A stretch of DNA of 64,000 bases from an uncultured virus (IMG/VR IMGVR_UViG_3300008117_000020) (Duplodnaviria; Heunggongvirae; Uroviricota; Caudoviricetes). The notes under the pieces were generated by a model. It saw only the letters and a list, made by a program, of their open reading frames with translations. It was not told the DNA's origin and searched no databases. Shown here in pieces: positions 320-15,578 of the stretch. The first letter of the stretch is position 1, and every line of letters starts with the position of its first letter. Position numbers and translations under genes: made by a program. The stretch lies in the IMG/VR virus record IMGVR_UViG_3300008117_000020; one strand, given 5' to 3'.

Positions 320-332
320 TGTATTCCTTAAA

Positions 333-354: not shown

Positions 355-358
355 ATAA

Positions 359-1219: not shown

Positions 1220-1265
1220 GTTATGTTATCCTTTATATGATATTGGGTTATGGATAGTTAGATAG

Positions 1266-1706
1266 TCAGGCAACCTTGCGTGCCTTAAGTTTGGTATTGA
1301 TAGTGCGAGGAATCCAAATTGGAGCAGTAACAACCTTGCCAGTGCCGTAGGCAATTTTGCCAAGGTCATTGATTACTACTTTGGATTTGTTATATTTTGT
1401 TTGAACTGTTTCTTTAGTGTGAGCTGTGCGTGTTGTGCCAAGAGCCTGAGCCTTTGGACTGTCATAGTTCCAGGCAAGAAACTTGTAACCAGGAACAGAC
1501 ATCAAAGTTGAAACAACGCCAGCAGACATTGCAATAAGGCCTGCGGCACCAAATGCAATGCCCATAACGTATGAGATGAACAAAGAGTTGAGTAGATTAA
1601 AGAGTCCGCTTTTAGCAGAGAGTCTGCGCCAAGCTGGGACTTTAGCTGCAATCATCAACTCCAAAGCAGTTGAAGTGATTGCGAGTAGAAAGACCATTGT
1701 TATCAT
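1266..1706 (-). CDS. Hypothetical membrane protein
   Basis: 146 aa, hydrophobic N-terminal segments, GGAG RBS. Confidence 0.7.
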   Translation of the reverse strand: MITMVFLLAITSTALELMIAAKVPAWRRLSAKSGLFNLLNSLFISYVMGIAFGAAGLIAMSAGVVSTLMSVPGYKFLAWNYDSPKAQALGTTRTAHTKETVQTKYNKSKVVINDLGKIAYGTGKVVTAPIWIPRTINTKLKARKVA

Positions 1707-1889
1707 TTATTACTCCTTTGGAGATGATATGGGTTTATATTTTGGTGGAACTGTTTAGCCCTTCTTTTTATGGAACTAAAAAGAAAGTTAATTTAGTTAT
1801 TCTTTGTATGAATAAAAAAAGTTATAAACAACAAAAGGGTCAGGAACTAGATTGTGTTCCCGACCCTTAAGTCGCATCCCTGATTGAGG

Positions 1890-2231
1890 TTAGTGGGTAA
1901 GCATTACCCAGAAGTCAAACATTTTGGTTTCATCGTTGAAACGTGAAACTGACTCTGTAGCAAGGTTGTCTTTTGCTGCGCGGGCATAAAGTCCAGCACG
2001 CAGAGAAGCAACCTGCTTCTTATCGGTCAATGGAATGTTTACGTGGAACCATTCATTGCGATTGTTAAGAAGCTCAGCGTAGATTGCGGTGATAACAGGG
2101 TTGCGCTTGCGACCCTTACCGCTACCTACTGGTGGCTGAGAAACCCGTGTAAGAAGCTTGGTAGGTGTTGCTATCGCAAACTTCTTAGGGTTGCTAATGA
2201 CTTGTGTTTCTGTGCTAGGGATAATAGCCAT
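1890..2231 (-). CDS. Hypothetical, possibly DNA-binding protein
   Basis: AAGGAG RBS before MAIIP; basic GKGRKR patch. Confidence 0.6.
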   Translation of the reverse strand: MAIIPSTETQVISNPKKFAIATPTKLLTRVSQPPVGSGKGRKRNPVITAIYAELLNNRNEWFHVNIPLTDKKQVASLRAGLYARAAKDNLATESVSRFNDETKMFDFWVMLTH

Positions 2232-2302
2232 GGTATTCTCCTTGGTGAGGTAAGACAATTTTTAAATTAAATTGTCACAATTTTTTATGAACTATTGTAT
2301 GA

Positions 2303-3175
2303 TTATATTTTAAAGTTCCAGTTGCGGAGTCTTCCACTTGAAAAGTGTAAGATCCAGCTAGCAAACAGTGCGTTAACTTCTGGTCTAAAGAGATCATTTG
2401 GCTCATAACCAAAATTATCTTTTAAAACTTTAAACCAAGAAGAATTAATCTGTAATAGTCCTGAATCATATGTACCATTTTTGTTCAAAGTCCAGACTAG
2501 TTGACCGTTTTCCCAAGTTGCGTTGACGGCTCCAGGTTGACACCTAGATTCACGCCAAGCAATATAAGAGAAAACTTTCCAAGGTAGTCCATACTTTTTA
2601 AAAATAGGTTCAAATTCAGGACAATAGAATTGTTTGCCTACAGGAAGTTTAATATGGTAAGTAGTATCACGAGTGGGTCTTAGATATTTATTGTTTTTAA
2701 TGCAACCCCATCCGGTGAATCCAACAGGATCCCTAAAGAAAGGTCTCCTATTGATTCTATCGTCTAGTGTTCTGTATTCATTTTTAGTTTGATAACCAAA
2801 AGTTGAAATACGGTTAGCAACAATAATCTGTTCTAAGACGGTAGCTTGGGAAGGATGTGGAGCAAATTCTTGTCCACCATATCCTTTCCAGGTAGACTCA
2901 GCAATGCCGAGTCCACCACCCCAATTACCTTTGTCTTGCCAGTCGCCGCCTGTTTCACATTGGGCGACCTTTTTCCAGTACTTAATGGAAGGTCCCATCT
3001 TGAATGGTACTTTCTTCCATTTAGTAGGAGTACTGGGCAGGGTGGTACTTCGGGGCTCGGAAGATGACTCCGAGACACCTCCGACATCTGTGGCAGATGC
3101 TGATGAAGTTGTTGCTGGAATGACTCCAGCTATTGCCACCATAAGTGACAATAGTATATTTCGTATGTTGCGCAT
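2303..3175 (-). CDS. Secreted Rpf-like transglycosylase fused to a second SLT-type lytic transglycosylase domain
   Basis: Signal peptide; WKKVAQCETGGDW...GGLGIAESTWKGYGG...QATVLEQIIVA (Rpf core); IAWRESRC...AVN...DSGLLQIN (SLT motifs). Confidence 0.85.
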   Translation of the reverse strand: MRNIRNILLSLMVAIAGVIPATTSSASATDVGGVSESSSEPRSTTLPSTPTKWKKVPFKMGPSIKYWKKVAQCETGGDWQDKGNWGGGLGIAESTWKGYGGQEFAPHPSQATVLEQIIVANRISTFGYQTKNEYRTLDDRINRRPFFRDPVGFTGWGCIKNNKYLRPTRDTTYHIKLPVGKQFYCPEFEPIFKKYGLPWKVFSYIAWRESRCQPGAVNATWENGQLVWTLNKNGTYDSGLLQINSSWFKVLKDNFGYEPNDLFRPEVNALFASWILHFSSGRLRNWNFKI

Positions 3176-3184
3176 GGTATCGCT

Positions 3185-3305
3185 CCTTTCGTGTGGGTTT
3201 GAGACTTACGTCTCATTAGCAAACGCGCAGGTTGCGAAACCGAAGATTGCATGGACAAATACGATATGCCCATTACATTGGCAGGATTGCCTCTCCGACT
3301 TCGTA
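3185..3305 (-). promoter_or_regulatory. Candidate structured 5' leader of the Rpf/SLT gene
   Basis: GAAGTCGGAGA/TCTTCGGTTTC stem enclosing two hairpins, then TGAGAC-GTAA-GTCTCA hairpin before the RBS. Confidence 0.45.
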
Positions 3306-3578
3306 GATATCACTATCTATTAGGTAGGGGAACTTCCCCCTGCCCATAAATGGGCATGGTATATTGTATCAGATAAGGGATAGTGTGGTCTATTTTAAAC
3401 ATGGTTTTTCTCCAGTAGTAGGAATACAGACTCATAAAGAGTGATCCCCGGGTTACTGTTGTGGGAACAGCTTCCCGGGGACATATCACTTTGACATTGT
3501 ACTCCTGCGCTTCGTAATTTAATACGATCACAATATAGTAACCGTATTTAAAGTATAAGCACTTAAATTAAAATAGAA

Positions 3579-3854
3579 TTAGGCTTCCATTTCTTTTGAA
3601 TCGTAGAAGTCGTCATCTTCAACTATGCTGCTCTGCGTGCTGCTGGAGCTATTAGCAGAAGGCATAGATGAATTAATTTGATATACGCCTCTACGAACTT
3701 GAGAGAATCTAGAAGGATTCTTCCTGATGTAGATGTAAACGTTTTGAACAGTGCAACTAACTTCTGCTGCAATTTGAGCAACAGTGAATTCAGTGCCTTC
3801 ACTGTACTTAGAATTGATGAGCTGTTCAATTGCATTTGTCTTTCCTCTTGGCAT
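3579..3854 (-). CDS. Winged helix-turn-helix DNA-binding protein
   Basis: FTVAQIAAEVSCTVQNVYIYI HTH followed by VRRGVY wing. Confidence 0.7.
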   Translation of the reverse strand: MPRGKTNAIEQLINSKYSEGTEFTVAQIAAEVSCTVQNVYIYIRKNPSRFSQVRRGVYQINSSMPSANSSSSTQSSIVEDDDFYDSKEMEA

Positions 3855-4036
3855 TTTGGTACTCCTCTGTGAGGTTTTTGTTTGATACTTACATATATAA
3901 AGTTATATAATAAAATCTTATATATGAGACATTCTCATGAATATCTTAGATTTTTTAGTTACAGCCATTACAAACATTAATATATATATAGTATGTAAAC
4001 ATACCAAACATATATAAATTGGTAGGCTTAACAAAA

Positions 4037-4285
4037 TTAGTCGATCTGAACGTCGACTCCAAGGATCTCAGAATGAAGTTTGAGAGCCTCAAGAAGAGCG
4101 TTGAACGACTCTTGAAGAGCGTGCATGCCTGTCAGAAATTTGTTGACCTCGACAGAATTGTCTTTGGAAATTTCTAGCAGAGGATAAACTCCCAAATACT
4201 TTGAGAGTAGATCCTGCAATCGATTGAAAGACTCATAGAGTTCAGCTTCGTTGTGCATAATTGTTTGGGGGATGTTGAGGGACAT
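4037..4285 (-). CDS. Hypothetical protein
   Basis: Start MSLNIP adjacent to the upstream stop at 4287. Confidence 0.6.
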   Translation of the reverse strand: MSLNIPQTIMHNEAELYESFNRLQDLLSKYLGVYPLLEISKDNSVEVNKFLTGMHALQESFNALLEALKLHSEILGVDVQID

Positions 4286-4286
4286 G

Positions 4287-4733
4287 TTAGAACATAGCCT
4301 TTCGTTTGGTGTAATAAGAGTTTGTTGTCCATAAGACATCGGTTCCATGACTGTCATATACTTCGATATGACCATCCGTCATGTCGCCAATGTCATTGAA
4401 GCAAGTTTTGACTTGTCCTTTGTATTTAAACTGGCTATGCGTTGTGTCGACAAGCCAGGTAATACGAAGGTCAAGGCCCTTGCTTCTGGCTTTAAGTATG
4501 GCCATTGAGCCATAGGTAGATTTCTCTAAATTCTGGGTTATCCACAAGATGGGAGAACCGCTAGAATTAGGAAGAATTGCTGATGCATAAGCTCTTGATT
4601 CTGGAATGCGTATGTCATAAGTTTCATCTCGATAATCAATGTGATATCTATCTGAATCTGTATTATACAACGCATCCCATAGAGCGTTATGTGTTGCGAG
4701 AATTTGGTCTCGCTGTTCGTTTGTTAGTTCCAT
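4287..4733 (-). CDS. Hypothetical protein
   Basis: 148 aa ORF with GAGG RBS. Confidence 0.7.
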   Translation of the reverse strand: MELTNEQRDQILATHNALWDALYNTDSDRYHIDYRDETYDIRIPESRAYASAILPNSSGSPILWITQNLEKSTYGSMAILKARSKGLDLRITWLVDTTHSQFKYKGQVKTCFNDIGDMTDGHIEVYDSHGTDVLWTTNSYYTKRKAMF

Positions 4734-4875
4734 AAATAATATTCCTCTGCCTTATTAAAAAAAGGTGGTTTTCCCCGGAACACTACCTTAAGTGGGGGGC
4801 AGGTAATGCTCCGGGGTCAACCGATCGGTAAGACTAAGAGAAATTAAGCTAGGAGGCAAACTTGTTCGTCAGAAG

Positions 4876-5148
4876 TCAGACCGAAGATGTATCCATAGTT
4901 TTGTTGTCACTGTCGCCTTCTTCAACCAGTTCATAAGGCGACTTGAGATAAAACTCTATTTGATCAATGATTTGAAGTCCGAGAAGAATACCTTCTAAAA
5001 TCTTTACCTTTTTAGCGTCTTCCATGTTAGGAGTAACGCTGAGGTAAAGCTTATTGCTGCCCACGTGTCTGTGGACAGCTTCTAGAAGGTACTGTGCTTC
5101 TTCTTCTGTTAGACATGCGTCTATAAATTTTGTGCTCAAATTATTCAT
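4876..5148 (-). CDS. Hypothetical protein
   Basis: 90 aa ORF in the operon direction. Confidence 0.6.
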   Translation of the reverse strand: MNNLSTKFIDACLTEEEAQYLLEAVHRHVGSNKLYLSVTPNMEDAKKVKILEGILLGLQIIDQIEFYLKSPYELVEEGDSDNKTMDTSSV

Positions 5149-5195
5149 TTCATATCCAATTTCGCGTCGATATTTTTTTTTAAATTAGGGTTAGA

Positions 5196-5687
5196 TTAGA
5201 ATGGTTCAGGTATGGATTGAACCATGTTTTCGGTGAGCTCGTCATATGTGACAATGGCGAGCCCAGCGTAGTTTTGTTCTAGGACAGTTTCACAGTCAGA
5301 AGGAGAGCCCACATAAAGGACAAAGTCGTCAGCTATGTCTACGACATAGTGAAGGACAATGTCCTGGTGGTCTTCTCCAAAGGATTTCTCGGAAATCCAT
5401 TCTGGGTCTAGATATTTTGACATAGATTTAGTTTCAATTTCGTCTTCGTCAGGAGGGAAGATTTCGTCCCAGCAAGACTTGCAGGTGCCGGAAATCATCA
5501 GTTCTCGCTGATCCATAGAAAGGTCTGGAAAGACCTCTTGCATAAAGCGACGCTTATAGAACACATCTTCAAAGTCAGAAACTGACAATTTAAAGATATG
5601 TTTAGCTTCGCAATGAACGCAAGATTTGTTGAATTCTGTGGTATCTGTAGATCCACGTGAATAGTCGTGATTATAGATGATGTTCAT
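5196..5687 (-). CDS. Hypothetical Zn-binding protein
   Basis: CVHC...QRELMISGTCKSCW; start MNIIY after GAAGGG. Confidence 0.65.
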   Translation of the reverse strand: MNIIYNHDYSRGSTDTTEFNKSCVHCEAKHIFKLSVSDFEDVFYKRRFMQEVFPDLSMDQRELMISGTCKSCWDEIFPPDEDEIETKSMSKYLDPEWISEKSFGEDHQDIVLHYVVDIADDFVLYVGSPSDCETVLEQNYAGLAIVTYDELTENMVQSIPEPF

Positions 5688-5706
5688 GTGAATATTGCCC
5701 TTCTTT

Positions 5707-5994
5707 TTAGAATGCACCGAAAGCCGCATACACAAGGTATGCAAACATAGCAATTAGGAGAATTGCAGGAATGTAGACTTGGTGCATAATGAGAGATATT
5801 GATGAGACTAGGGTTACGATAGCTTCGAGAGCTATGTAGGATTGAATTGCTCTACGCTTGGCTTTCTTTGTGCGTAGATGGCCGATGGACCGGCCCGCAA
5901 AAGAACCAAGCTTATGGGTATAAGTTTGTAGAGAAGATGTATAGGGATAGTAGGGATTAGTATTAGGGGATGAAATAAGGATTGTGTGTGTCAT
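5707..5994 (-). CDS. Hypothetical membrane protein
   Basis: Two C-terminal hydrophobic helices. Confidence 0.55.
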   Translation of the reverse strand: MTHTILISSPNTNPYYPYTSSLQTYTHKLGSFAGRSIGHLRTKKAKRRAIQSYIALEAIVTLVSSISLIMHQVYIPAILLIAMFAYLVYAAFGAF

Positions 5995-6466
5995 ATTCTT
6001 TTCTTTTAATAAACATTAAAATAAAAAAACCTGTATTTAGCCTATAGGTGATTAGGCATTGTGTGGTAGGTTTGGAGATGTGTACACATATAGAGATTGG
6101 TGTGTACACAAGATATGGAGAGATGGTAGGGTTTATATAGGATGTTAGGTTTATATAGGTAGTTACTGGGTCCCCACTTAAAAAGCCTACAATTTTATCA
6201 TTTCATTAACAAAAATTATAGCTCGGCACTAATGATATATAAGGGTATATATGTGCCAAGGGGGAGATTGTTATTGTTCTATAGCTATTCTCTATATGTA
6301 TATAAGAGAAAGCATGAGATGGTTTTGCGGCGATTCGAGGTCTATGTTTTTTAAAAGTTTAATTAAAATTAAAATTAAAAAGACTGAATGCCGCAAGGGG
6401 ATGAGTATAATAAAAGACTGGCATAGGTGACCACCAACCTATACCAGTCTTTATTGAGACAAGATT

Positions 6467-6682
6467 TCAAATATGAAGCTCTATATTATACATTCTTTTA
6501 AAGTCACGTCGCATGGGATGCAGAGCAGACTCTGTTCCATGTGTTGTGTACATCGGGCCTTTGATCGTGGAGGGAGGTACGATCTTGTAAACGCCTGATT
6601 TAGCTCTTTCAACTTCAAAGCCTAACCGCTGGATTTCCGAAAGGACTTTCTTCATCCGACTAGATTGATGTTGCCGAGGCAT
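6467..6682 (-). CDS. HicA-like small protein
   Basis: 71 aa basic; KKVLSEIQRLGFEVERAKSG pattern of the HicA fold; AAGGAG RBS. Confidence 0.5.
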   Translation of the reverse strand: MPRQHQSSRMKKVLSEIQRLGFEVERAKSGVYKIVPPSTIKGPMYTTHGTESALHPMRRDFKRMYNIELHI

Positions 6683-6724
6683 ATAATATCTCCTTATATT
6701 TGATTGGTCTCGCCTGACACAGAT

Positions 6725-6753
6725 AGTATATCAGTGTCTTGGCCGGCGTGCAA
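6725..6753 (-). promoter_or_regulatory. Sigma70/SigA-type promoter
   Basis: TTGCAC-N17-TATACT with extended TG, about 40 nt upstream of 6682. Confidence 0.65.
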
Positions 6754-6894
6754 CCAAAAAGGAGACATTTTTCCAGCCTCGTAGAAAAGGCACTTAAAAG
6801 TTCGGCGCTTCGCGCCCTAGTAAAAATAATATAATGTGTAATCCAGGGATAGAGATAATCATAGAGACTATTCTAACCCTGGACTACACATATA

Positions 6895-7128
6895 CTACAG
6901 GTAGCTCCTTACAAAGGATACTCGACGTTTTTGGATTGCTTCTTCGAGACAATCGTCACACATTACTGCGTGATAGATGTTTGTGTCGAAACGGGAGCCG
7001 TAGCTACCTGTGATCTCGAAGTCGACTGCATCATTGAGATTTGTTGCATCTCCGGCTTGTTCTTCGGTCCACAGGTAGATTACTGCTTTTTCGCAAATGA
7101 GACAGGGAGTAAGGAATGGGCGTGGCAT
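6895..7128 (-). CDS. Hypothetical Cys-containing protein
   Basis: CLIC...GSYGSRFD...MCDDC. Confidence 0.65.
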   Translation of the reverse strand: MPRPFLTPCLICEKAVIYLWTEEQAGDATNLNDAVDFEITGSYGSRFDTNIYHAVMCDDCLEEAIQKRRVSFVRSYL

Positions 7129-7130
7129 TG

Positions 7131-7346
7131 TCAACCGCCCCACCCCACGAAGTGTTCAGGATCTCCGACCCAGAACCCACCAGTGCCGTCACTCTTGTTC
7201 AGCCACTCATCCAAACACTTGTGCAAGAACTCACGATGCTGATCGGTGAGAGGCTTGTCTTCGGTGTTGGGGTTGCAGTTGAAGCAGATGTCTGAGTGAA
7301 CATTGCCTTCGGTGGTTTCGTATTGAATTTCTGCGCAGAACTTCAT
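7131..7346 (-). CDS. Hypothetical protein
   Basis: Start overlaps the upstream stop (TAATG). Confidence 0.6.
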   Translation of the reverse strand: MKFCAEIQYETTEGNVHSDICFNCNPNTEDKPLTDQHREFLHKCLDEWLNKSDGTGGFWVGDPEHFVGWGG

Positions 7347-7642
7347 TAGATGGTCTCCTTGATCTTGTTGTTTCCGAGAGTGCGGTCGATGGACTCCATG
7401 ACGAGGCCAACGTTATCGTTTTCCAAAGCGTTGAGCCATGCTTCCATGAGCTTGAGGTGGCTTTCGCGCAGAGTAGCGTGCGATTCGATCTGCTTCTTGA
7501 GGACTTCGACGAGATCCTTGAAGTTTTCGATTCGCTCGGACTGAGTGGAGATCATACGCTTCATGACGTTCATGTGAGTTTCCATGTCGCGGATCTCTGC
7601 GTTTGCTGCGTTGATATCGGTGTAGATGGGACGTGTGGTCAT
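7346..7642 (-). CDS. Hypothetical coiled-coil protein
   Basis: Start MTTRP after GAAGGA RBS. Confidence 0.65.
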   Translation of the reverse strand: MTTRPIYTDINAANAEIRDMETHMNVMKRMISTQSERIENFKDLVEVLKKQIESHATLRESHLKLMEAWLNALENDNVGLVMESIDRTLGNNKIKETI

Positions 7643-7826
7643 TGTATTCCTTCTTTGTATGAATTTTTTTATATGATTATATGTATTTATGCGACTTTGG
7701 TATACTGATAGAACATTACTGTTGGGTATACTAGCCAACATATTTTAAGCGGGTCTTCTATCAATCCCGACACGTCACTATCTTAAACTAAAAGTACTAC
7801 CCAGTAGTTTGGACACGTGCAGCCCT

Positions 7827-7899
7827 TGGTGGAGATGCTGGGAATCGAACCCAGATGATGAACATTGGCGAACCGTTGTTCCGAAAGCCTGTCATCCCC
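7827..7899 (-). ncRNA. 73-nt tmRNA-like tRNA-like domain with no mRNA-like region
   Basis: GGGGATG...CATCTCC-A-CCA acceptor stem with G3-U70; T-arm CTGGG-TTCGATT-CCCAG; no D stem; GAACA/TGTTC stem capped by GG-TTCG-CC instead of an anticodon loop. Confidence 0.75.
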
Positions 7900-7903
7900 G
7901 TAG

Positions 7904-8083
7904 TGGCATAGTTTTACTTATTCGTATATGAGGTGGCTATGCCAGACCATTCTCATAACTATCCGTGCATTTATAGGCGTCACGGCTAAGCCTTATAAAG
8001 GTGATCTTTATATTATGTAAAGCGATCAGGTTTACACAAGATAGATTAGTTAGACTCTACTGTTAACATCTATCAGGTAACAG
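7904..8083 (-). ncRNA. Four back-to-back H-type pseudoknots
   Basis: Crossing stems CTGTTA/TAACAG+GATAGAT/ATCTATC; TGTAAA/TTTACA+TGATC/GATCA; TTTATAAGGC/GCCTATAAA+CCGTG/CACGG; TATGAG/CTCATA+TGGCATAG/CTATGCCA. Confidence 0.6.
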
Positions 8084-8213
8084 GGTTTTACACCTTCTAA
8101 CCAGTGGTGTTGTCTATGTATTCAGCCCCATAGACAGGTCGGTGTTGGGGCGCACCACGGAGACGGTGTCGTTTAAGATATGCTTGCTACATATCCCCCA
8201 ATGACCTAGTATG

Positions 8214-9221
8214 TTAGAACGGGACTTCGTCGAGGTTGACCTTTGCAGCCGGAATGCTCAGGTCGTTTGCACGAGCCGAGTTCGACCACAGGTCACACGC
8301 AATCTCTTCGTTGTCGATGCTGAGCGTGAAACGACCGCAAGGTGCGTTCACGAGGTCATACATCGGCTGAGGCTCGAGGCGTCCACCCTTGCCAACCATA
8401 ATGCGTTGCTGAGAGCCGGCCCAGTTACGAACCCACTGACGAGACTGCTGAAGAAGTGCATCGCGCTCCTTGCTCATCTCGGCAATAGTCGCCTGAGGCT
8501 TTCCGTCCATCTGCTTGGTGATCATGTGAGCCTTCAAGCGAAGACCATATGCGCGAGTAAACGCAGACACCTGAGCGTCGATGAAGTCAATGAAGCCCTG
8601 CTTGGTACGCGACTTCTCACGGTCAACGCTACCGATCTCAAACGAGGTCACGGGAACGCCACCCTGATGGGCATACGCAGCAACGATACGGCCTGGGTTC
8701 TCAATACGACCAGTCACGTCGATTGCACCTGCAGCCTTGAAGACGTCGACAGCGTGCTGAATACCAGCTTCAGATGCACCGAACTGCTGGAAGTACAGAG
8801 GCATACCGTTATTGAAGGTAAAGCCCATGTCATTCAGCGTACGCTCGAAAGCATCACGATCGACAGTCTTGCCGTTTGCGGTGACGAACTGGTAGAAGAG
8901 GTCGTTCAGAGAGACCTTCTGACCATCCTGGACAAGAGCGATGTTCATCTTCACAGGGTTCAAGATACCCGTGACGAGGAAGTACTCCTTACCAGTGTAC
9001 GGCGATTCCTGCTTCAGAACCGAAAGGCGTGTGAGATTTGCGCTCTCAACACTGACTTCGTATGCAGTCTCGACGCCATTGATGGTGCCATTCATCTGGA
9101 CAGTCTTGCCGACAGTCAGAGTGCGGGTAGACGAGGTGGACTTGAAAGCGTCCAAGTTCTCGCCAATCGCATCAAACAGGTCGAGGTCAAGACCGAACTT
9201 GTTTACGTCAATTGTACTCAT
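8214..9221 (-). CDS. Hypothetical protein with SSB-like acidic C-terminus, probably highly expressed
   Basis: 335 aa, ends NLDEVPF, C-ending codon bias. Confidence 0.75.
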   Translation of the reverse strand: MSTIDVNKFGLDLDLFDAIGENLDAFKSTSSTRTLTVGKTVQMNGTINGVETAYEVSVESANLTRLSVLKQESPYTGKEYFLVTGILNPVKMNIALVQDGQKVSLNDLFYQFVTANGKTVDRDAFERTLNDMGFTFNNGMPLYFQQFGASEAGIQHAVDVFKAAGAIDVTGRIENPGRIVAAYAHQGGVPVTSFEIGSVDREKSRTKQGFIDFIDAQVSAFTRAYGLRLKAHMITKQMDGKPQATIAEMSKERDALLQQSRQWVRNWAGSQQRIMVGKGGRLEPQPMYDLVNAPCGRFTLSIDNEEIACDLWSNSARANDLSIPAAKVNLDEVPF

Positions 9222-9315
9222 TGTTTATTCCTTATGTTTTTAATTGTGAGTATATGTGTGGTAGGTGATTACAAGGGAATATCTTAATTCCCTTCTTTTT
9301 TGGGTACCGCTTGGG

Positions 9316-9486
9316 TTAGATCTCGTCGATGATTTCGACGTTTTCTGCACCTTCGCGATATCCAGAGACAAAAGCGTCCTTCAGAGACTTGGACTTGTCA
9401 GCAGTCTTACGCGGCGTTGACTTGATAGCTTCGAGCGTAAGAGCAGTGATCTTGCCAGTCTTTTCGGTGATCTTTTCAATCTTCAT
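9316..9486 (-). CDS. Small hypothetical protein (56 aa)
   Basis: Own translation MKIEKITEKTGK...EIIDEI; AAGGAG RBS. Confidence 0.6.
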   Translation of the reverse strand: MKIEKITEKTGKITALTLEAIKSTPRKTADKSKSLKDAFVSGYREGAENVEIIDEI

Positions 9487-9623
9487 ATTTTTTTATTCTC
9501 CTTCAGAGATACTAGTTCCGGGAAGGAACATTTCGATTATTGCTGTGATAAAGTCCATGATGAAATCCATGTGCACCCCCTTCCCTTCTTTTTTGCAGGG
9601 ATAGGGGGGCACACAGTTTCAGT

Positions 9624-9779
9624 TCAGGCATTCTCCTGATCGTAATACACGTGCATGCGAGTTTGGGCAGGCCGGCGAACCTTTATTACCATGAACTCGT
9701 TGATCAATGCAACGTTGATCACAACCGAAAGAACAACCAAACCAGACACAAGACCAGTGATGTACCAGTACCAAGCCAT
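9624..9779 (-). CDS. Small membrane protein (51 aa)
   Basis: Own translation MAWYWYITGLVSGLVVLSVVINV...; TAATG coupling to the upstream gene. Confidence 0.55.
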   Translation of the reverse strand: MAWYWYITGLVSGLVVLSVVINVALINEFMVIKVRRPAQTRMHVYYDQENA

Positions 9780-10126
9780 TAGTAAATCCTTCCGGTGTAC
9801 TCGCTGTCATCAAGGGTCTTGTAATTGAAGCCATGTCCGCCTTGGATTACAACACGCTTGAGCGGAATGCCGTTGCGTGTTGCGTGCTCTTTTGCGATGA
9901 TGATTGCCTGCTGTTCGTTGAGACAACCGATGTCGAGCTGAATCCAGTCGGACGCGTCACCAGTTGGCGACGGAATGTGGAGAACAACCTGCCACTTGGA
10001 ATACCAGTAGCCATCTCGCTCTTCAATTGAGATTTGCCACGGTATACCGCGAAACATTTTGTCTTCGATCATTCCTACTGGATGCTTGATTTCGATTGTG
10101 TCGGTTGGGATGAGGCTGTATTTCAT
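9779..10126 (-). CDS. Hypothetical protein
   Basis: Start MKYSL with TAATG overlap. Confidence 0.65.
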   Translation of the reverse strand: MKYSLIPTDTIEIKHPVGMIEDKMFRGIPWQISIEERDGYWYSKWQVVLHIPSPTGDASDWIQLDIGCLNEQQAIIIAKEHATRNGIPLKRVVIQGGHGFNYKTLDDSEYTGRIY

Positions 10127-10535
10127 TACTTGCTCCTTGTGATGTACTTGGTGCGTGCTGCGTCGCCGGCATAGAGTCCGATGACGAAACACACGGTGGT
10201 GATTGCTACGTTGATGTGCTTACGCATATTTGATTTTCTTCTTTCCGCAGATTGAGCAGTAGATGATTTGCCGGGGATCATATGGGTCATTGTTGAGCCA
10301 CTTGGTGTTAAGCCAAGCATGACCGTGAGTCCAGCATTTTAGTCTACGCATTCTGCTTTTCCTTTTGCTTGTAGTGGTTATAGATGTCATCCAAGGTAGA
10401 TGCCTTGTCTCCGGCCCAATCGACGTCCTTCTTTTCTTCTTTGTTCTCGTTCTCACCGAGCACCCAGCAGGTGAAGGCGATTCCGAGCAAGAAGCCGGCG
10501 TTGATAAGTCGAAGTGACTTGATGAATGATTTCAT
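10126..10535 (-). other. Three short overlapping ORFs (10344..10535, 10220..10351, 10126..10227), two hydrophobic
   Basis: Start/stop overlaps; AGGAG RBS before 10535. Confidence 0.5.
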
Positions 10536-10639
10536 TTGGTTTCTCCTATTGTTTGAGATTTTTTGGACAAAGCATATCTTTTATGCGTTGCCCTTCTTTT
10601 TTGTTTGAACTTTGGGTTGAGGGTCTAAAAATAAAAAAG

Positions 10640-11095
10640 AGAGTGGTACCAGTAAGAGTAGGTGGGCCCAACAAACCAACTAAGTTGGGTGATCCACCTA
10701 CTCTTTACCGGGAGGTACCATGCAAGAATAAGCATATTGATTAGACTTTGACCACGCATATGCGAGACGTGGCGGTATATCGGCTCTAATCAACCTAGCT
10801 AGTTCACATCCCTACTGCAGTAGGCCATTTGTCATCGATAATGCCAAACGGATGAGCACTCTAGCATGCTCAAGATAAAGATTTGTGAGCCTTTTTAGGT
10901 CATGCTCCAGGACCACATTAGTTTCTCCTAATGTTATTTCTCGTACATATGTACAAGAGCGAGAAAGGACCAGTTGCTATTATGTATAACTAGGGGACTG
11001 GCAACTCCCAACCATTTCAGATTTATACACCTATATGGTCAATAAGTGTTCTGTTGACAAGATGCCTAGGGGACAGAGAACTCCCAACCATTTTT
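10640..11095 (-). ncRNA. Cluster of structured non-coding elements
   Basis: Long hairpin 10645-10721; stem TTGATTAGA/TCTAATCAA; pseudoknot GGTC-CTG-GAGC-AT-GACC-TAAAAAG-GCTC; two covarying copies of a GGTTGGGAGTT-N5-TCCCCTAG motif. Confidence 0.55.
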
Positions 11096-11292
11096 TATTT
11101 ATACACCCATATGGTCGATGGGTGTATGATGTCGGTGATTTCAGCTTTAGTTCCCATGTACATGTTGCCGTTTGGATCGATCCAGGAAACGAGGTCGATC
11201 AGAGTGGCTTCTGCCATGTTCTGCTTGGTGTTGGCGAGTTCAATGAGATCTCGCACGCGGATGTTGTCTTGGGTCATGTCACGAAGAGCCAT
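11095..11292 (-). CDS. Hypothetical protein
   Basis: 65 aa; AGGAGG RBS. Confidence 0.6.
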   Translation of the reverse strand: MALRDMTQDNIRVRDLIELANTKQNMAEATLIDLVSWIDPNGNMYMGTKAEITDIIHPSTIWVYK

Positions 11293-11439
11293 GATGTTTT
11301 CCTCCTATTTGGAAACTTGGGGCTAGATCCCTTCTTTTCACTCTGTTTAGAATTTTGAGAACTAGGATCTATAAATAAAAAAGGTAGTCCCAGGGGAGCC
11401 GAAGCCCCCCCGGGAAACCAGATGGATGATGGGTAGTGA

Positions 11440-11817
11440 CTAGAAAGCGTCGTCGATGGTCGGCTCGTCGCTCTCGAAGTCGTCGATGATGACGGTGGGA
11501 GCGATGGGAGCAGGCCCGAGACGGCGGATGGAACCGTTGAGCCAGACCGTCTGACGGGGCTTCTTGAGCGCCACGATCGTGCCGTCTTCGGCGAGGTAGT
11601 CGACTTCGATGTCCTCGAACTTGTAGTCCGTGGTCTCGAGACGGTGCCACTTCGCGAGGGGCTTCTCGGGGTTGAAGAGACCGAGATCGATGAGGGCGGA
11701 AAGGGTGACGGAGCGATCGACCGCGTCGCACATCAGAAGAACCTTTGTCTTGCCTGATGCTGTGACCTGATCGTCGCAGATATGGGTGACGGTGAACGTC
11801 ATCGGTGAGTGGGACAT
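11440..11817 (-). CDS. Hypothetical acidic-tailed protein, paralog A
   Basis: 125 aa, highly similar to 12066..12443; AGGAGG RBS. Confidence 0.85.
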   Translation of the reverse strand: MSHSPMTFTVTHICDDQVTASGKTKVLLMCDAVDRSVTLSALIDLGLFNPEKPLAKWHRLETTDYKFEDIEVDYLAEDGTIVALKKPRQTVWLNGSIRRLGPAPIAPTVIIDDFESDEPTIDDAF

Positions 11818-12065
11818 ATTGACCTCCTATGGTCGGATTGTGGGAAGGAAATCCCTTCTTTTCACTCGACCCTAAACTATCGGTCTAGGGCCTAGTTGGA
11901 AAAGGGGGGGAGTCGGTAGTCCGACTCGTCCGGCGCGAAGCGACGGCCCGAACACGAGTCCCATCCCGAGCGAAGCGAGGGATGGGCGAGTGTTCGGATA
12001 AAAGGGGGGTGTCCCCCGAGGAAGCCGTAGCAACCCCGGGGGACGTGGATGGAAGTCGGGACGCG

Positions 12066-12443
12066 TTAGAAGGCGTCGTCGATGATGGTCGGGCCGGACT
12101 CGTCGATCTCGTCGATGATGGTCGTCGGAGCGATCGGAGCGGGTCCGAGTCGGCGGATGGAGCCGTTGAGCCACACGGTCTGGCGGGGCTTCTTGAGAGC
12201 CACGATGGAACCGTCTTCGGCGATGTAGTCGGTCTCGACACCTTCGAACTTGTAGTCGTCGGTCACGAGGCGGTGCCACTTCGCGAGGGGCTTGGCGGGG
12301 TTGAAGAGGCCGAGGTCGATCAGTGCGGAGAGCGTGATGGACTTGTCGACGCCGTCAGCCATGAGGAGGACCTTGGTCTTGCCGGAAGCGGTGACCTGGT
12401 CGTCGCAGATGTGCGTGACGGTAAAGGTGAGTGGGGTGGACAT
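12066..12443 (-). CDS. Hypothetical acidic-tailed protein, paralog B
   Basis: 125 aa; shares TFTVTHICDDQVTASGKTKVLLM and IDDAF end with paralog A. Confidence 0.85.
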   Translation of the reverse strand: MSTPLTFTVTHICDDQVTASGKTKVLLMADGVDKSITLSALIDLGLFNPAKPLAKWHRLVTDDYKFEGVETDYIAEDGSIVALKKPRQTVWLNGSIRRLGPAPIAPTTIIDEIDESGPTIIDDAF

Positions 12444-12658
12444 GGTTGAACTCCTGTTCGGGTTGTGGGGCGGTTGCCCTTCTTTTTACTCGACCGTGTG
12501 TTTGTTGGTCTAGTCGAGTGCATCGGGTCTGTTTAGAATAGAACCGATAGCAGAGACCTAAAGCCTATTGAGACTTGAAGTCTTTAATCTGCCATAAAAG
12601 AAAAGACCCCACCACACTGGCTGTGTGGCAGGGCTTTCCTTGTTGGTGGTCCGTCTGG

Positions 12659-14998
12659 TTAACGGTTGGTCTCGCTCAGGGCTTCGAGTGCCCGGATGAA
12701 CCAGTCGACCGGCTGCTTCTCGCTCTTCGGAGAGAACGAATACAGCCACTTGTCGTGGTTCACACCAGGGAACTTTTCCTTGGCATTGAATGCTGCACGG
12801 ACGAGCAGGAGAATCTTGCGATTCGTGTACTGCTCACCAGCTTCGGCATCGGAACGCTCCAACATCTTCACGAAGTCCAGGGCCCACGTCTTGGTGGAAG
12901 CCTGGTAACGCTTGATCTTGTTGAGTTCTTCCTTCATAGATGCTGTCTCTGCAGGAGTGAACTCGATGTTCTCGATGACGTCAGGCATGATGATGTTGTC
13001 GTTGACCCACTTCACCATCTCGGAGATAGCAGACTTGGCAGTCGCCTCTCGTTCACGGTGAAGCTTGATCCACTTCGAGTCATCAACGTTGCCCGGGTAC
13101 ATTCCGTACTTCTCGGCCATAGTGTCGAACATCCTGGTATAGTACCAGAAAGCGTCAATCTGACCGCCAGTTGCGTCTGCAATGATGTTCATCGTGTCAT
13201 CGACATTCTGAGCAATCAATGCAATGTCCTCGGGAGTACCGCAGCCGGTCTGCAGAGTATCAATCATGTCCTCATTGGAACATACCTGAGACTCGATGTG
13301 TCCGCCGACCAGGGCAGCATGCAGCATCTTGGGGATGGTTGCACCGCCTGTACCAGCAGGAAACAGCAAACTAGCCGACCTGACTCTGTCCTCGTCTTCG
13401 AGAGAGTAGATCTCTCCAAGCTCAAGGCCAGCATTGCCGGGAAGCTCTCCAACCTCCAGAAGGTGTTCGACCTGGCTGTACTGTGGAACAAGTCTGTTCA
13501 ACTCGTTCAAGTCCAGTTCAGGAGGAGCTTCTGTGTAGGTATGGAACACCGGACCTGGATTAACCACAGGGATGAAACTCCACTCACCGAATGCGTTCGG
13601 ATTGCGAAGGATCAGTGCCCCGAGGCGACCTTTCACCGTACGGATCAAGATCTTGCCAGTATCGTCCTGGTCCCAACCTCCATGGTTGGAGTAGTTCTTC
13701 TCGAAGAATTCGCCCGGAACAACAAAGCAGTGAGTCTTCTCGTGAAAGAAGCCCCAAGGCTTGCTGGTAACAGGGAACCCAAAGAGTCGAAGAACTTCCT
13801 GAGTAACGACGTGAGCAGCGTAAGCCCACGGCACCGGAAACCAGTGACGGGACTTATCTTCCCAAGACTCCAGCTTGCGAAAGTTTCCATTCTCGTCTTC
13901 AACCGTTTTCTTGGTCAAAAGCTGCATCTTCAAACCGTTCACGCTCAAGAACATGAGGGTCTGGGATGCAGTGAGAGGAACACCCAACTTGTTAAGTCGA
14001 GCTACCGCATTCTGGATGTGGTACACGAGACCACGATCTGAGTCAAACTTCTCTTCGTCATCCTCGTGAAGGATTTCGTCCTGATGTTCAACCAGCTTGG
14101 TAAGCCACTCGGAACGCTTGCCACTCTTGACATCTGCAAAGAATGTTGTCAGCATTCCCTTCAGGCTGTCCATGAGTGTTGCATCGTCGTAGAGGCTCTT
14201 GACACGCCAGTAGATGGAATGGCTCAGATCGTCCGACTTGACAGGAATTGCTCCGTAAGAAGGGTTGATCGTGATCCATTGCCAGCCACTTGTGTAGATT
14301 TCTGGCTTGACGTTGGGCTCAAACGTGAGCACATCGTAGCCTTGCATCTGCTTCTTCGGAAGCACAAGAGCATTACCCTTGATCAGTCCGAATGGCGTGA
14401 GCATGCGAATCTCAACGACGGCTGTGACACCACCATTGATCTTTGCAATCTGCTGAGCTCTCCAACGAGGTGAAGCGTTGGTGTTGGATAGGATGCATCT
14501 GATGGCAAGGTCGCGACTGATCGCCGAGATACCATCCACGTACTTCTCAGGGAAGTTGTGGATCGGCATACCAACCTTGATCGAGAGATCATCGTCGTAC
14601 AGCCAAGCGCATGCCAAGCGTGACAATTCTGCCAGACGCTTTGACATCTTCTTGGAGTTCTTGATGAACAGCCCGATCTCCGCAAGGGAGCTCATCCAGC
14701 CTTTGTTCGCCTTGATGCGGAGAACATACTGGTCAGATGATGTGGACCACCTAAGCTCCTCAGAGGAGAATCGATGATCCTTGTCGACGGCAGGTTCGCT
14801 CTTCATGCGACCCCACCGCTTGGTGTGGATCTTCCTGACTTCCAACCGGTACTTGTCCGGAAAGAAGTGGTTCAGGAAGGCGGGTTCGTAACTCCCGCTT
14901 GTGAACTCTTCGAGGACTTTGTCTTCCTCGAGGAGCGGAGCTGACGTCAGCAGCCGAAGCCACATCTTTCCTCTCCTTACGATGCCGTGAAATGGCAC
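12659..14998 (-). CDS. Putative single-chain two-barrel (YonO/QDE-1-like) RNA polymerase
   Basis: VDGISAISRDLA, EIRML...GLIKGNALV, GGWDQDD and LILRNP resemble the DG.G.IS..LA, QIR..G.KG, GG.D.DGD and RNP motifs of the QDE-1/RdRP family. Confidence 0.6.
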   Translation of the reverse strand: MPFHGIVRRGKMWLRLLTSAPLLEEDKVLEEFTSGSYEPAFLNHFFPDKYRLEVRKIHTKRWGRMKSEPAVDKDHRFSSEELRWSTSSDQYVLRIKANKGWMSSLAEIGLFIKNSKKMSKRLAELSRLACAWLYDDDLSIKVGMPIHNFPEKYVDGISAISRDLAIRCILSNTNASPRWRAQQIAKINGGVTAVVEIRMLTPFGLIKGNALVLPKKQMQGYDVLTFEPNVKPEIYTSGWQWITINPSYGAIPVKSDDLSHSIYWRVKSLYDDATLMDSLKGMLTTFFADVKSGKRSEWLTKLVEHQDEILHEDDEEKFDSDRGLVYHIQNAVARLNKLGVPLTASQTLMFLSVNGLKMQLLTKKTVEDENGNFRKLESWEDKSRHWFPVPWAYAAHVVTQEVLRLFGFPVTSKPWGFFHEKTHCFVVPGEFFEKNYSNHGGWDQDDTGKILIRTVKGRLGALILRNPNAFGEWSFIPVVNPGPVFHTYTEAPPELDLNELNRLVPQYSQVEHLLEVGELPGNAGLELGEIYSLEDEDRVRSASLLFPAGTGGATIPKMLHAALVGGHIESQVCSNEDMIDTLQTGCGTPEDIALIAQNVDDTMNIIADATGGQIDAFWYYTRMFDTMAEKYGMYPGNVDDSKWIKLHREREATAKSAISEMVKWVNDNIIMPDVIENIEFTPAETASMKEELNKIKRYQASTKTWALDFVKMLERSDAEAGEQYTNRKILLLVRAAFNAKEKFPGVNHDKWLYSFSPKSEKQPVDWFIRALEALSETNR

Positions 14999-15164
14999 GT
15001 TGTACCTCCTGGTACTTTGTTGTGTAGAGGCCGTCTACACGCGGTTTGTGGCATTTGCTCAGACTTGAGGTCTTTGCTCTACCAAAAAAGAAAAAGCTCT
15101 CCCTAAGGAGAGCAATTCCTTCTTCTAATCACTTAAGATTAGGAAATGTCATTTTTTATTCGAA

Positions 15165-15578
15165 CTAGCGAATGTTGCGAGCTTTGATGTGCTGAGCCTT
15201 GAGTTTGAGAAGCTCGTCGATCTTTTCTGAGCCCCAAGTAACAGTCTGCTTTTCAGCACCCGCAATGTGAGCTGTCATGATCTTGATGATCTCGTTTTTC
15301 TCATCTTTGGCAAGCACCTGCTGCAGCTCCTTGAAGAGATTGCGAATGAGATTGACTTGTGCTTCGCTCATCGGATTGGTGTTCACCTTCTTGAAGCCGG
15401 TGCCTTTGCAGGTAAAGCAGTTGCCGATGGATCCGTCCTTAAGCGGGACGTTGTACTTGCCGGTGCCAAGGCACTTGGGGCAGGTGGGCTGGTTGTTCGC
15501 CATGTTGATGGTCTCCTTGTTGTTGTTGGTTGTGGTCAGATCGTTTCCGATCTCTGGGGTTGGCTGGTTTGCCTTCAT
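15165..15578 (-). CDS. DnaJ-type zinc-finger protein
   Basis: CPKCLGTG...CFTCKGTG then PMSEAQ helical domain. Confidence 0.8.
   Translation of the reverse strand: MKANQPTPEIGNDLTTTNNNKETINMANNQPTCPKCLGTGKYNVPLKDGSIGNCFTCKGTGFKKVNTNPMSEAQVNLIRNLFKELQQVLAKDEKNEIIKIMTAHIAGAEKQTVTWGSEKIDELLKLKAQHIKARNIR

What the first reader, a model, noticed from the sequence alone, without database searches (positions are those of the whole stretch)
7827..7899. Mini-tmRNA: tRNA-like domain only, with no tag reading frame
Seen: GGGGATGACAGGCTTTCGGAACAACGGTTCGCCAATGTTCATCATCTGGGTTCGATTCCCAGCATCTCCACCA. Both ends resemble ssrA termini (G3-U70 alanine identity, A discriminator, encoded CCA, unpaired D region), but the long message/pseudoknot region is replaced by a short UUCG-capped stem. 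Inference: an alanylated SmpB/EF-Tu decoy that blocks or alters trans-translation. That would matter if ribosomes must pause at CGG shift sites without being tagged.
Basis: partly seen in the sequence, partly recalled or inferred. Interest (0 to 1): 0.75.

Follow-up and report, generated by a model that had tools for sequence, protein, structure and literature searches.

The report
Phage tag-less mini-tmRNA gene
This freshwater phage carries a 73-base gene for only the alanine-accepting, tRNA-like end of the bacterial ribosome-rescue RNA (tmRNA), a type already published from mycobacteriophage DS6A, so it is a new small member of a known kind.

Summary
The sequence is real, at 7827-7899 on the minus strand. 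It is a tmRNA with both ends intact and no middle. Rfam's tmRNA model aligns its first and last positions at 42.4 bits (E 1.6e-15; curated cut-off 47), with 326 model positions replaced by 25 nt. ARAGORN finds no tRNA, tmRNA or tag frame.

The published 'TLD only' tmRNA of mycobacteriophage DS6A aligns the same way at 43.2 bits. A covariance model built from 13 other viral mini-tmRNAs scores the window's copy at 44.3 bits and DS6A at 47.3.

A pattern scan found 58 loci in viral contigs. Fifty-one of them (38 unique sequences) remain candidate tag-less forms, and their helices covary.

The last 30 nt match full-length tmRNAs of freshwater actinobacterial and Patescibacteria genomes.

Most likely it is alanylated and competes with host tmRNA for SmpB, as reported for a similar molecule (Mao 2009, seen only as cited). 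That function is not tested here, and expression of the mature RNA is not shown.

This scan has already found the same kind on other DNA many times. Verdict: new member of a known kind.

The parts
7827..7899 (-). Mini-tmRNA gene (tRNA-like domain only, 73 nt, CCA encoded)
   Evidence: RF00023 at 42.4 bits, E 1.6e-15, both model ends matched. Model R1 at 44.3 bits, E 1.3e-6. No tag frame by ARAGORN.
7893..7899 (-). Acceptor stem 5' strand GGGGAUG (RNA positions 1-7), with G3 of the G3-U pair
   Evidence: Read from the sequence. Position 5 pairs with its partner in 40 of 40 aligned family rows, although the search pattern left both positions free.
7882..7892 (-). D-loop analogue ACAGGCUUUCG (RNA 8-18), with the GG that is invariant in the family
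   Evidence: G11 and G12 are invariant or nearly invariant in alignment A1 of 40 rows. It resembles the GGUUUCGAC / GGCUUCGAC of the full-length tmRNAs that share the same 3' end.
7860..7881 (-). Short closing helix in place of P2 and the whole mRNA-like/pseudoknot body (RNA 19-40): GAACA/UGUUC carrying GG-UUCG-CC
   Evidence: The tmRNA-like fold scores -21.2 kcal/mol against the optimum of -22.2. The equivalent helix covaries at 8 of 8 pairs across the family. This copy's own helix has no diverged relatives to test it.
7855..7859 (-). Linker AUCAU (RNA 41-45). It has U where at least 90% of family rows, and all 9 full-length tmRNAs with this 3' end, have C
7838..7854 (-). T arm CUGGG-UUCGAUU-CCCAG (RNA 46-62)
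   Evidence: Identical to the T arm of 10 genome loci that hold tmRNA 3' ends.
7827..7837 (-). Acceptor 3' strand CAUCUCC, discriminator A and CCA (RNA 63-73)
7900..8213 (-). 314-nt non-coding leader between the upstream gene and the mini-tmRNA; moderately structured
   Evidence: No Rfam family matches it. Fold z-score -2.51. RNA-library contigs of two runs from two studies lie on 7889-8266 and 7965-8116; contigs show neither strand nor ends.
7643..7826 (-). Spacer downstream of CCA, with no terminator-like site, running into the next gene
   Evidence: 0 terminator-like sites in 7400-8400. Fold z-score +0.43.
8214..9221 (-). Upstream flanking ORF (335 aa, no family match), on the same strand as the RNA gene
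   Evidence: The choice of strand rests on the negative AT skew of 8-22 kb and is inferred.
7346..7642 (-). Downstream flanking ORF (98 aa from the ATG at 7642, preceded by AAGGA; coiled-coil-like weak matches only)
   Evidence: The start codon is chosen by eye.

Best explanation
It is a phage gene for a tag-less, TLD-only tmRNA. The RNA is probably cut out of a longer leftward transcript by host tRNA-processing enzymes: RNase P at the 5' end and trimming back to the encoded CCA at the 3' end. AlaRS would then charge it with alanine through G3-U70 and the A discriminator. It would bind the host's SmpB (and EF-Tu) in competition with the host's full-length tmRNA. Because it has no resume codon or tag frame, it cannot complete trans-translation. 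The net effect during infection would be to lower ssrA tagging and tmRNA-dependent rescue. Shown here: the sequence, its tmRNA-type ends, the missing body, membership of a conserved phage RNA family, and likeness to DS6A. Inferred: processing, charging, SmpB binding and the inhibitory effect. I put about 0.9 on the identity and about 0.55 on inhibition by competition as the main function.
For: Identity: RF00023 aligns both ends at 42.4 bits, E 1.6e-15. The published DS6A TLD-only tmRNA, at L077 28478-28560, aligns the same way at 43.2 bits. Model R1, built from 13 viral mini-tmRNAs without the window or DS6A, gives the window 44.3 bits and DS6A 47.3. For comparison it gives 35.4-37.3 to the 3' ends of two full-length phage tmRNAs, 33.5 to a tRNA-Ala, and 23.5-31.9 to four host-type tmRNA ends. 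Family: across 41 aligned rows, 94.8% of pair cells are standard pairs against 70.4% in shuffles (0 of 500 reach it) and 47-55% with slid partners. 16 of 23 pairs show changes on both sides. Mimicry of cellular tmRNA: the last 26 nt are identical to 10 genome loci, 9 of which are full-length tmRNAs with tag frames or full Rfam matches. Those tmRNAs start GGGGAUGA, as this RNA does. Function, from papers only: a similar TLD-only molecule strongly inhibits tmRNA, perhaps by titrating SmpB (PMC4131195, passages; PMC11915505, passages; both cite Mao et al. 2009, which I could not read). Peptidyl transfer to a truncated, TLD-only tmRNA has been measured in vitro (PMC3895274, one passage).
Against: No function was tested. 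The mature RNA is not shown to be expressed: no RNA-library contig covers 7827-7888. The copy scores at the bottom of its family and below Rfam's cut-off: 42.4 against 47. Of 18 short (TLD-only-type) RF00023 matches scanned, 14 reach 47; one of the 14, L002, overlaps a real permuted tmRNA. Its closing helix is only 5 bp. It has U where at least 90% of relatives and all 9 host-type tmRNAs have C, just before the T stem. The only other copies found belong to the same phage, with 5 differences in 1473 nt and none in the RNA, so selection on this copy cannot be seen. The alignment behind the pair counts was fitted to the model, which favours the structure. No SmpB gene or other trans-translation gene lies among the 80 ORFs scanned, so nothing in the neighbourhood bears on function.
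Confidence: 0.55

Rival explanations
1. Tag-less rescue rather than inhibition. The charged mini-tmRNA enters stalled ribosomes with SmpB and accepts the nascent chain, adding one alanine. The ribosome is then freed by drop-off or other factors. Phage ribosomes would be recycled without marking proteins for degradation, as is suspected for the CDS-less tmRNAs of mitochondria and some plastids.
For: PMC11915505 says mitochondrial tmRNA appears to have no tag frame yet is conserved together with SmpB, and reports ~65-bp CDS-less plastid forms (passages). Peptidyl transfer to a TLD-only tmRNA has been measured in vitro (PMC3895274, one passage). The features needed for charging are intact.
Against: The only reported effect of such a molecule in bacteria is inhibition of tmRNA. 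Without a resume codon and stop codon, no known step releases the ribosome. Nothing here tells the two readings apart.
Confidence: 0.2
2. A decaying or neutral remnant: a cut-down phage tmRNA gene that no longer works.
For: It has the lowest-tier scores in the family. It departs from a nearly invariant C. Its closing helix is very short. There are no diverged copies to show constraint.
Against: All 7 acceptor pairs, all 5 T-stem pairs, the T loop, the GG of the D-loop analogue, the discriminator and CCA are intact. DS6A's published copy scores about the same. Several other family members of similar size score 43-46.
Confidence: 0.1
3. Attachment site: the stretch identical to host ssrA serves site-specific integration into the host tmRNA gene, and the RNA-like look is secondary.
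For: The 3' 26-30 nt are identical to full-length tmRNA genes of candidate hosts. tmRNA genes are frequent integration sites (PMC11915505, abstract and passages).
Against: An attP fragment needs only the 3' part. Here the 5' acceptor strand and D-loop analogue, about 300 nt away in a cellular gene, are joined to it by a closing hairpin. No integrase or recombinase family matched among the 80 ORFs scanned with Pfam. The one 'transposase'-labelled ORF (359-1219) is a TIGR-Tas endonuclease by NCBIfam. The family's inner helix covaries, which indicates selection on an RNA.
Confidence: 0.05
4. Another use of a tRNA-like shape. Examples: a decoy for host nucleases or defence proteins that act on tRNA or tmRNA, a partner for RNase R, or a processing signal for the neighbouring transcript.
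For: Phage proteins that bind fragments of tRNA and tmRNA are described (PMC11662646, passages). The gene sits inside a transcription unit, with a structured 314-nt leader that appears in RNA libraries.
Against: No evidence here is specific to this reading. The conserved alanine identity pair, discriminator and CCA across 41 rows point to charging, which a pure decoy or processing signal would not need.
Confidence: 0.1

Closest known systems
'TLD only' (standard form, no CDS) tmRNA of Mycobacterium phage DS6A (JN698994, 28478-28560; tmRNA Website tmID 11587 as given in PMC4131195)
   Same: Both are phage-encoded. Both have the two tmRNA ends joined by a short hairpin and no tag frame. The Rfam alignment style and score are almost the same: 43.2 against 42.4 bits. 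Both are recognised by model R1, at 47.3 and 44.3 bits.
   Different: DS6A's is 83 nt, with an 8-bp-class P2 helix plus the 'AAAA + CCG-loop-CGG' inner hairpin typical of the family, and it ends CACUA in the DNA. The window's is 73 nt, with a 5-bp helix, a UUCG cap and an encoded CCA. The hosts differ: Mycobacterium against a probable freshwater actinobacterium or Patescibacteria member.
Uncharted family of mini-tmRNAs in uncultured viral contigs
   Same: Acceptor stem with G3-U, GA after the stem, GG in the D-loop analogue, closing helix, T arm and ACCA.
   Different: Most members are 77-89 nt, with a 6-8-bp helix, a 3-4-nt A-rich bulge and a 3-bp tetraloop hairpin, and GGAC/GAAC before the T stem. 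The window's copy is shorter and has AUCAU there.
Full-length tmRNA (Rfam RF00023), e.g. those of Acidimicrobiales and Saccharibacteria genomes L059-L066
   Same: First 8 nt and last 26-30 nt are identical; the D-loop analogue is similar.
   Different: The window's RNA has no pseudoknots, no resume codon and no tag frame. It is 73 nt against 350-405 nt.
CDS-less tmRNAs of jakobid and oomycete mitochondria and of Mallomonadaceae plastids
   Same: tRNA-like domain without a tag frame; about 65 bp in the plastid cases (PMC11915505, passages).
   Different: Those are organellar, mostly permuted gene forms, and are the organelle's only tmRNA working with its own SmpB. This one is a virus copy that would act beside the host's full tmRNA. 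I compared no organellar sequences.

Membership tests
tmRNA, standard full-length (RF00023) | Acceptor stem with G3-U70, discriminator A, CCA end, T arm | tested here: met
tmRNA, standard full-length (RF00023) | Score at or above Rfam's gathering cut-off (47 bits) | tested here: not met
   42.4 bits; nothing is reported at the gathering threshold.
tmRNA, standard full-length (RF00023) | mRNA-like domain: resume codon, tag reading frame, pseudoknots | tested here: not met
   ARAGORN finds 0 genes in the window. 326 model positions are replaced by 25 nt. The upstream 316 nt alone give no tmRNA match, and host tmRNA profiles match only 7827-7857.
TLD-only (CDS-less) phage tmRNA, DS6A type | Both tmRNA ends contiguous, joined by a short closing helix, on a phage genome | tested here: met
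   Phage genes in the window: terminase, portal, capsid.
TLD-only (CDS-less) phage tmRNA, DS6A type | Recognised by a covariance model built from other members only | tested here: met
   R1: window 44.3 bits, E 1.3e-6; DS6A 47.3. This is above the tRNA-Ala and full-length tmRNA 3' ends, which score 23.5-37.3. The margin over the best false match is only 7 bits.
TLD-only (CDS-less) phage tmRNA, DS6A type | Compensatory changes that keep this copy's own helices | tested here: inconclusive
   The family covaries, but the only other copies of this subtype are identical.
TLD-only (CDS-less) phage tmRNA, DS6A type | Alanylation, SmpB binding, inhibition of host tmRNA | not testable with these tools
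   Known only from papers citing Mao et al. 2009. That paper is not held.
Permuted (two-piece) tmRNA (RF04321) | Acceptor piece followed by a coding piece; score at or above 47 bits | tested here: not met
   19.7 bits, E 0.069, model positions 36-94 of 213 only. A true case, L002, scores 85.1 bits over the whole model.
tRNA-Ala | Cloverleaf with D arm, anticodon arm and alanine anticodon | tested here: not met
   ARAGORN finds none. The tmRNA model beats the tRNA model within the clan. True tRNA-Ala genes caught by the same pattern (L034, L035) are called by ARAGORN.
attP fragment of ssrA | Only the 3' part of ssrA, next to an integrase gene | tested here: not met
   3' identity is present, but so are the 5' strand and D-loop analogue. 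No integrase family matched in the 80 ORFs scanned.

The most novel reading that the evidence does not exclude
The mini-tmRNA is a counter-defence tool. It would occupy SmpB, or take the nascent chain without a tag. This would keep the host from tagging and destroying phage proteins made on mRNAs cut by host nucleases during infection. Its tRNA-like ends are tuned to the host's own tmRNA: the first 8 and last 30 nt are identical to candidate host tmRNAs. If so, phage mini-tmRNAs would be a widespread, host-matched class of RNA anti-rescue factors that also report host identity.
Probability: 0.15. Interest if true: 0.65.

Novelty: new member of a known kind. Interest (0 to 1): 0.3.

Why it matters
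Tag-less phage tmRNAs are published from a single phage. The tmRNA database counts only 9 'standard, no CDS' sequences among 97,179 (PMC11915505). Standard tools miss this copy: ARAGORN gives nothing and Rfam scores it below cut-off. One pattern scan found 51 candidate loci in viral contigs. The class is therefore much commoner than annotation shows, and it points to phage interference with host ribosome rescue. This copy adds a small freshwater example whose ends match actinobacterial and Patescibacteria tmRNAs, which may help assign a host. On its own it does not change what is known.

Tried and rejected
**Full-length tmRNA hidden upstream.** A GGGGCUGAAUACAUAGAC motif at about 8129-8112 (minus strand) looked like a second tmRNA 5' end followed by a PK1-like hairpin in a MAFFT alignment with host tmRNAs.
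- Rfam on 7900-8215 alone gives no tmRNA match.
- nhmmer profiles of 5 Patescibacteria and 4 actinobacterial tmRNAs hit only 7827-7857.
- The motif lies in the loop and stem of a simple hairpin, GUCUAUG/CAUAGAC.
- It lacks the GG and would mispair with the 3' strand.
- I read it as chance.

**Permuted tmRNA.** Rejected: 19.7 bits, partial match only.

**Expression.**
- RNA-library contigs of 4 runs were laid on 5000-11000. None covers 7827-7888.
- One contig (X16) spans 7889-8266 and another (X20) spans 7965-8116. Contigs show no strand, ends or level, and small structured RNAs are poorly captured.
- So expression of the mature RNA is neither shown nor excluded.

**Relatives of this locus.**
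- The nearest held virus record, G001, has no match to 1-20000, to 7700-8100, or to RF00023.
- The protein of 8214-9221 has no relative in viral contigs.
- The exact-5'-half pattern found nothing in viral contigs.
- megablast of 7000-9000 against phage records found nothing.
- blastn of the 73 nt against phage records gave only T-arm-length matches, mostly to tRNA genes: 0 of 256 records cover 80% of the query.

**Other look-ups that gave nothing.**
- The window's own assembly is not held.
- The phrase 'mini-tmRNA' occurs in 0 papers. Six phrases for phage, viral or truncated tmRNA gave 9 papers; of these I read passages only in PMC9004378, PMC3895274 and PMC4131195, and found a survey of a tag-less phage family in neither those passages nor the listed titles and abstract openings.
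- Mao et al. 2009 is not held.
- A look for a guide-RNA array near the Tas-like gene found no clear array.

**A label I dropped.** I first read the AAA+ protein at 28005-29255 as ClpX-like. NCBIfam shows it matches the second ATPase module of ClpB/ClpA instead.

Full report
**What is there.**
- The RNA starts GGGGAUG, which pairs over 7 positions with CAUCUCC near the 3' end, including G3-U.
- After the stem come A and an encoded CCA.
- A 5-bp stem CUGGG/CCCAG with loop UUCGAUU forms a T arm.
- ARAGORN finds no tRNA or tmRNA in the whole window, and Rfam at its curated thresholds reports nothing.
- With the E-value threshold on 7600-8250, the tmRNA model RF00023 matches 7827-7899 (minus) from model position 1 to 374. 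The score is 42.4 bits (cut-off 47), E 1.6e-15, with 326 model positions replaced by 25 nt.
- The permuted-tmRNA model matches only partly, at 19.7 bits and E 0.069.

**The setting.** The window is phage DNA.
- It carries a large terminase (37154-38776), a portal (43931-45562) and a major capsid protein (49196-50260). It also carries RecA (26136-27134), a Clp/Hsp100-type ATPase (28005-29255) and an Rpf-like transglycosylase (2303-3175).
- The RNA gene sits in a 571-nt gap between two minus-strand ORFs: 8214-9221, and 7346-7642 with a probable start at 7642 after AAGGA.
- No terminator-like site lies within 7400-8400.
- None of the 80 ORFs scanned with Pfam is SmpB, an integrase or a recombinase.
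- The ORF that PHROGs and Pfam label as a transposase (359-1219) passes NCBIfam's cut-off for a TIGR-Tas RNA-guided endonuclease.

**Comparison with the published case.** Two papers from the tmRNA database group describe this kind.
- PMC4131195 lists 'Mycobacterium phage DS6A (TLD only)'. It says the sequence is little more than the tRNA-like domain, and that a similar molecule, chargeable or not, strongly inhibits tmRNA, perhaps by titrating SmpB (passages).
- PMC11915505 repeats this. It counts 9 'standard, no CDS' sequences among 97,179 and reports ~65-bp CDS-less plastid forms and tag-less mitochondrial tmRNAs (passages).
- Both cite Mao et al. 2009, which is not held.
- I fetched the DS6A record. 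RF00023 matches it at 28478-28560 with 43.2 bits, model 1-374, and 312 positions replaced by 20 nt. That is the same picture as in the window.

**A family, and an independent model.**
- A pattern for 'tmRNA 5' end, 25-55 nt, tmRNA T arm and 3' end' found 58 loci in viral contigs.
- Four were false. L012 and L025 are 3' ends of full-length tmRNAs. L034 and L035 are tRNA-Ala genes.
- That left 39 unique sequences in 54 loci.
- One of these (L002, L022, L045) overlaps a true permuted tmRNA scoring 85.1 bits on RF04321, so it is ambiguous. This leaves 38 unique sequences in 51 loci.
- In a MAFFT alignment of the window with the 39, two pairs that the pattern left free are standard pairs in 40 of 40 rows: acceptor pair 5 and the second T-stem pair.
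- Constrained folds show a common plan. After the acceptor come 10-13 unpaired nt with GG, a 6-8-bp helix with an A-rich bulge and a small tetraloop hairpin, 3-4 nt (GGAC or GAAC), the T arm, then ACCA.
- I built model R1 from 13 of these sequences, without the window or DS6A. I searched 49 sources, 249,056 bases in all.

| Source | R1 score (bits) |
|---|---|
| Window's RNA (E 1.3e-6; its only hit in the window) | 44.3 |
| DS6A | 47.3 |
| 3' ends of two full-length phage tmRNAs | 37.3 and 35.4 |
| A tRNA-Ala | 33.5 |
| Four host-type tmRNA ends | 23.5-31.9 |

- On the 41 rows with E up to 1e-5, 94.8% of pair cells are standard pairs, against 70.4% in shuffles (0 of 500 reach it) and 47-55% with slid partners.
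- 16 of 23 pairs have changes on both sides, including all 8 pairs of the closing helix.
- That alignment was fitted to the model, which favours the structure.
- In a separate Rfam scan of 20 of the pattern loci, two (L012, L025) proved to be full-length tmRNAs. The other 18 gave short, TLD-only-type RF00023 matches. Fourteen of those 18 reach the cut-off of 47 bits (L002, which overlaps a real permuted tmRNA, is one of the 14) and 4 score 43.0-46.4. The window's copy therefore sits at the low end, next to DS6A.

**This copy's particulars.**
- In the tmRNA-like fold, a 5-bp helix GAACA/UGUUC carries GG-UUCG-CC (-21.2 kcal/mol). The unconstrained optimum (-22.2) pairs the GG of the D-loop analogue instead.
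- The five bases before the T stem are AUCAU. The U stands where at least 90% of family rows and all 9 host-type tmRNAs have C.
- A metagenome scan for this acceptor and T arm found two loci. Both are the same phage, with 5 differences in 1473 nt and none in the RNA. This copy's own helix therefore cannot be tested by covariation.

**Likeness to cellular tmRNA, and the attP question.**
- The last 26 nt occur exactly in 10 genome loci. Nine are full-length tmRNA genes, and the tenth is cut by its contig's end.
- By record title, five are Patescibacteria or Saccharibacteria, and five are Acidimicrobiales or other actinobacteria.
- All nine begin GGGGAUGA like this RNA, followed by UUGGUUUCGAC or UCGGCUUCGAC-type D-loop analogues.
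- nhmmer extends the identity to about 30 nt.
- The phage RecA is 57% identical (61% over a partial match) to that of the actinobacterial genomes and 50% to the Patescibacteria ones.
- An Rpf-like domain is present; its link to actinobacteria is my recollection.
- The phage DNA is held nearly whole (95-97% of sampled words) by 14 runs labelled lake water, freshwater or fungus metagenome. Twenty listed rows from 16 studies hold at least part of it, and two of the 14 may be the source of the window.
- I infer a freshwater host, more likely actinobacterial. This is weak.
But the 5' acceptor strand and D-loop analogue lie about 300 nt from the 3' end in a cellular gene. Here they are joined to it by a hairpin. 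No integrase was found, and the family's inner helix evolves like an RNA. I give the attP reading about 0.05.

**Expression.**
- Contigs of four metatranscriptome runs from four studies were laid on 5000-11000.
- One run has a 378-nt contig on 7889-8266 and another a 152-nt contig on 7965-8116. Both lie on the 314-nt leader upstream of the RNA gene, which folds somewhat better than shuffles (z -2.51).
- Nothing covers 7827-7888.
- Contigs give no strand, ends or level. So the mature RNA is neither shown nor excluded, and only the leader's presence in RNA libraries can be stated.

**Mechanism.** The features needed for alanylation (G3-U, A discriminator, CCA) and for a tRNA-like elbow (GG and T loop) are intact. 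There is no resume codon or tag. The best-supported reading is the published one for this kind: competition with host tmRNA for SmpB, and probably for AlaRS and EF-Tu, which lowers tagging and tmRNA-dependent rescue. A TLD-only tmRNA can take part in peptidyl transfer in vitro (PMC3895274, one passage), so tag-less rescue remains a live rival. None of this was tested here.

**Verdict.** This is a real gene-like element and a new, small member of a known kind (DS6A-type TLD-only phage tmRNA). This scan has already found it repeatedly on other DNA: a word look-up returned 128 notes, and all eight notes shown name DS6A as closest. No stored look-alike of this exact sequence exists.

Noticed in passing
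window 359-1219 (-): A 286-aa ORF labelled 'transposase' by PHROGs and weakly IS110-like by Pfam. It passes NCBIfam's cut-off for a TIGR-Tas RNA-guided endonuclease (180.2 bits, cut-off 100). A quick repeat scan of 1-9300 and 1-12000 showed no clear guide-RNA array.
   Followed up: partly
window about 8000-23000: A 15-kb block with G+C of 0.46-0.55, against 0.33-0.43 for most of the rest, and strongly negative AT skew. It has long ORFs open on both strands (e.g. 12659-14998 minus and 12575-14041 plus). None of about 27 of its ORFs scanned reached a family cut-off in PHROGs or Pfam; the only match was a weak, sub-threshold one to DUF16 at 17121-17636.
   Followed up: no
window 6460-6709: The same ~200-nt stretch, covering the 71-aa ORF 6467-6682 (minus), is held by RNA-library contigs of three runs from three studies. 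Its contig depths are the highest in two of them and second-highest in the third (37.5, 42.1 and 7). It may be an abundant early transcript or a small RNA.
   Followed up: no
window 7900-8213 (-): The 314-nt non-coding leader upstream of the mini-tmRNA has several hairpins (z -2.51) and appears in RNA-library contigs of two studies. It contains a GGGGCUGA...CAUAGAC motif that mimics a tmRNA 5' end but gets no support from Rfam or nhmmer.
   Followed up: yes
window 22278-22308 (-): A 22-nt run resembling the segment just before and into the T arm of the actinobacterial tmRNAs (GCTGATGGACCTGGGT.CGA.T). nhmmer gives E 0.045. It lies inside ORF 22069-22494 and is probably chance.
   Followed up: no
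window 28005-29255 (+): A 416-aa single-ring AAA+ protein matching the second ATPase module of ClpB/ClpA (NCBIfam positions 552-852 of ClpB; Pfam AAA_2 plus ClpB_D2-small). It is not ClpX.
   Followed up: partly
L002 1284-1560 (-) (also L022, L045; contigs of 183-231 kb): A 60-nt stretch that fits the mini-tmRNA pattern and RF00023 (52.3 bits) overlaps a full permuted tmRNA (RF04321, 85.1 bits; ARAGORN tag ANSNVALPIAA). One T arm and 3' end there could therefore serve two different 5' strands.
   Followed up: partly
L030 1111-1206 (+): A weak Y RNA-like (YrlA) match, 38.4 bits against a cut-off of 69, directly upstream of and overlapping the start of a mini-tmRNA. It lies inside a tRNA cluster.
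   Followed up: no
window 58355-58927 and 60014-61507 (+): A 2OG-Fe(II) oxygenase and a tryptophan-halogenase-family protein (Pfam 323 bits) lie among the late genes.
   Followed up: no
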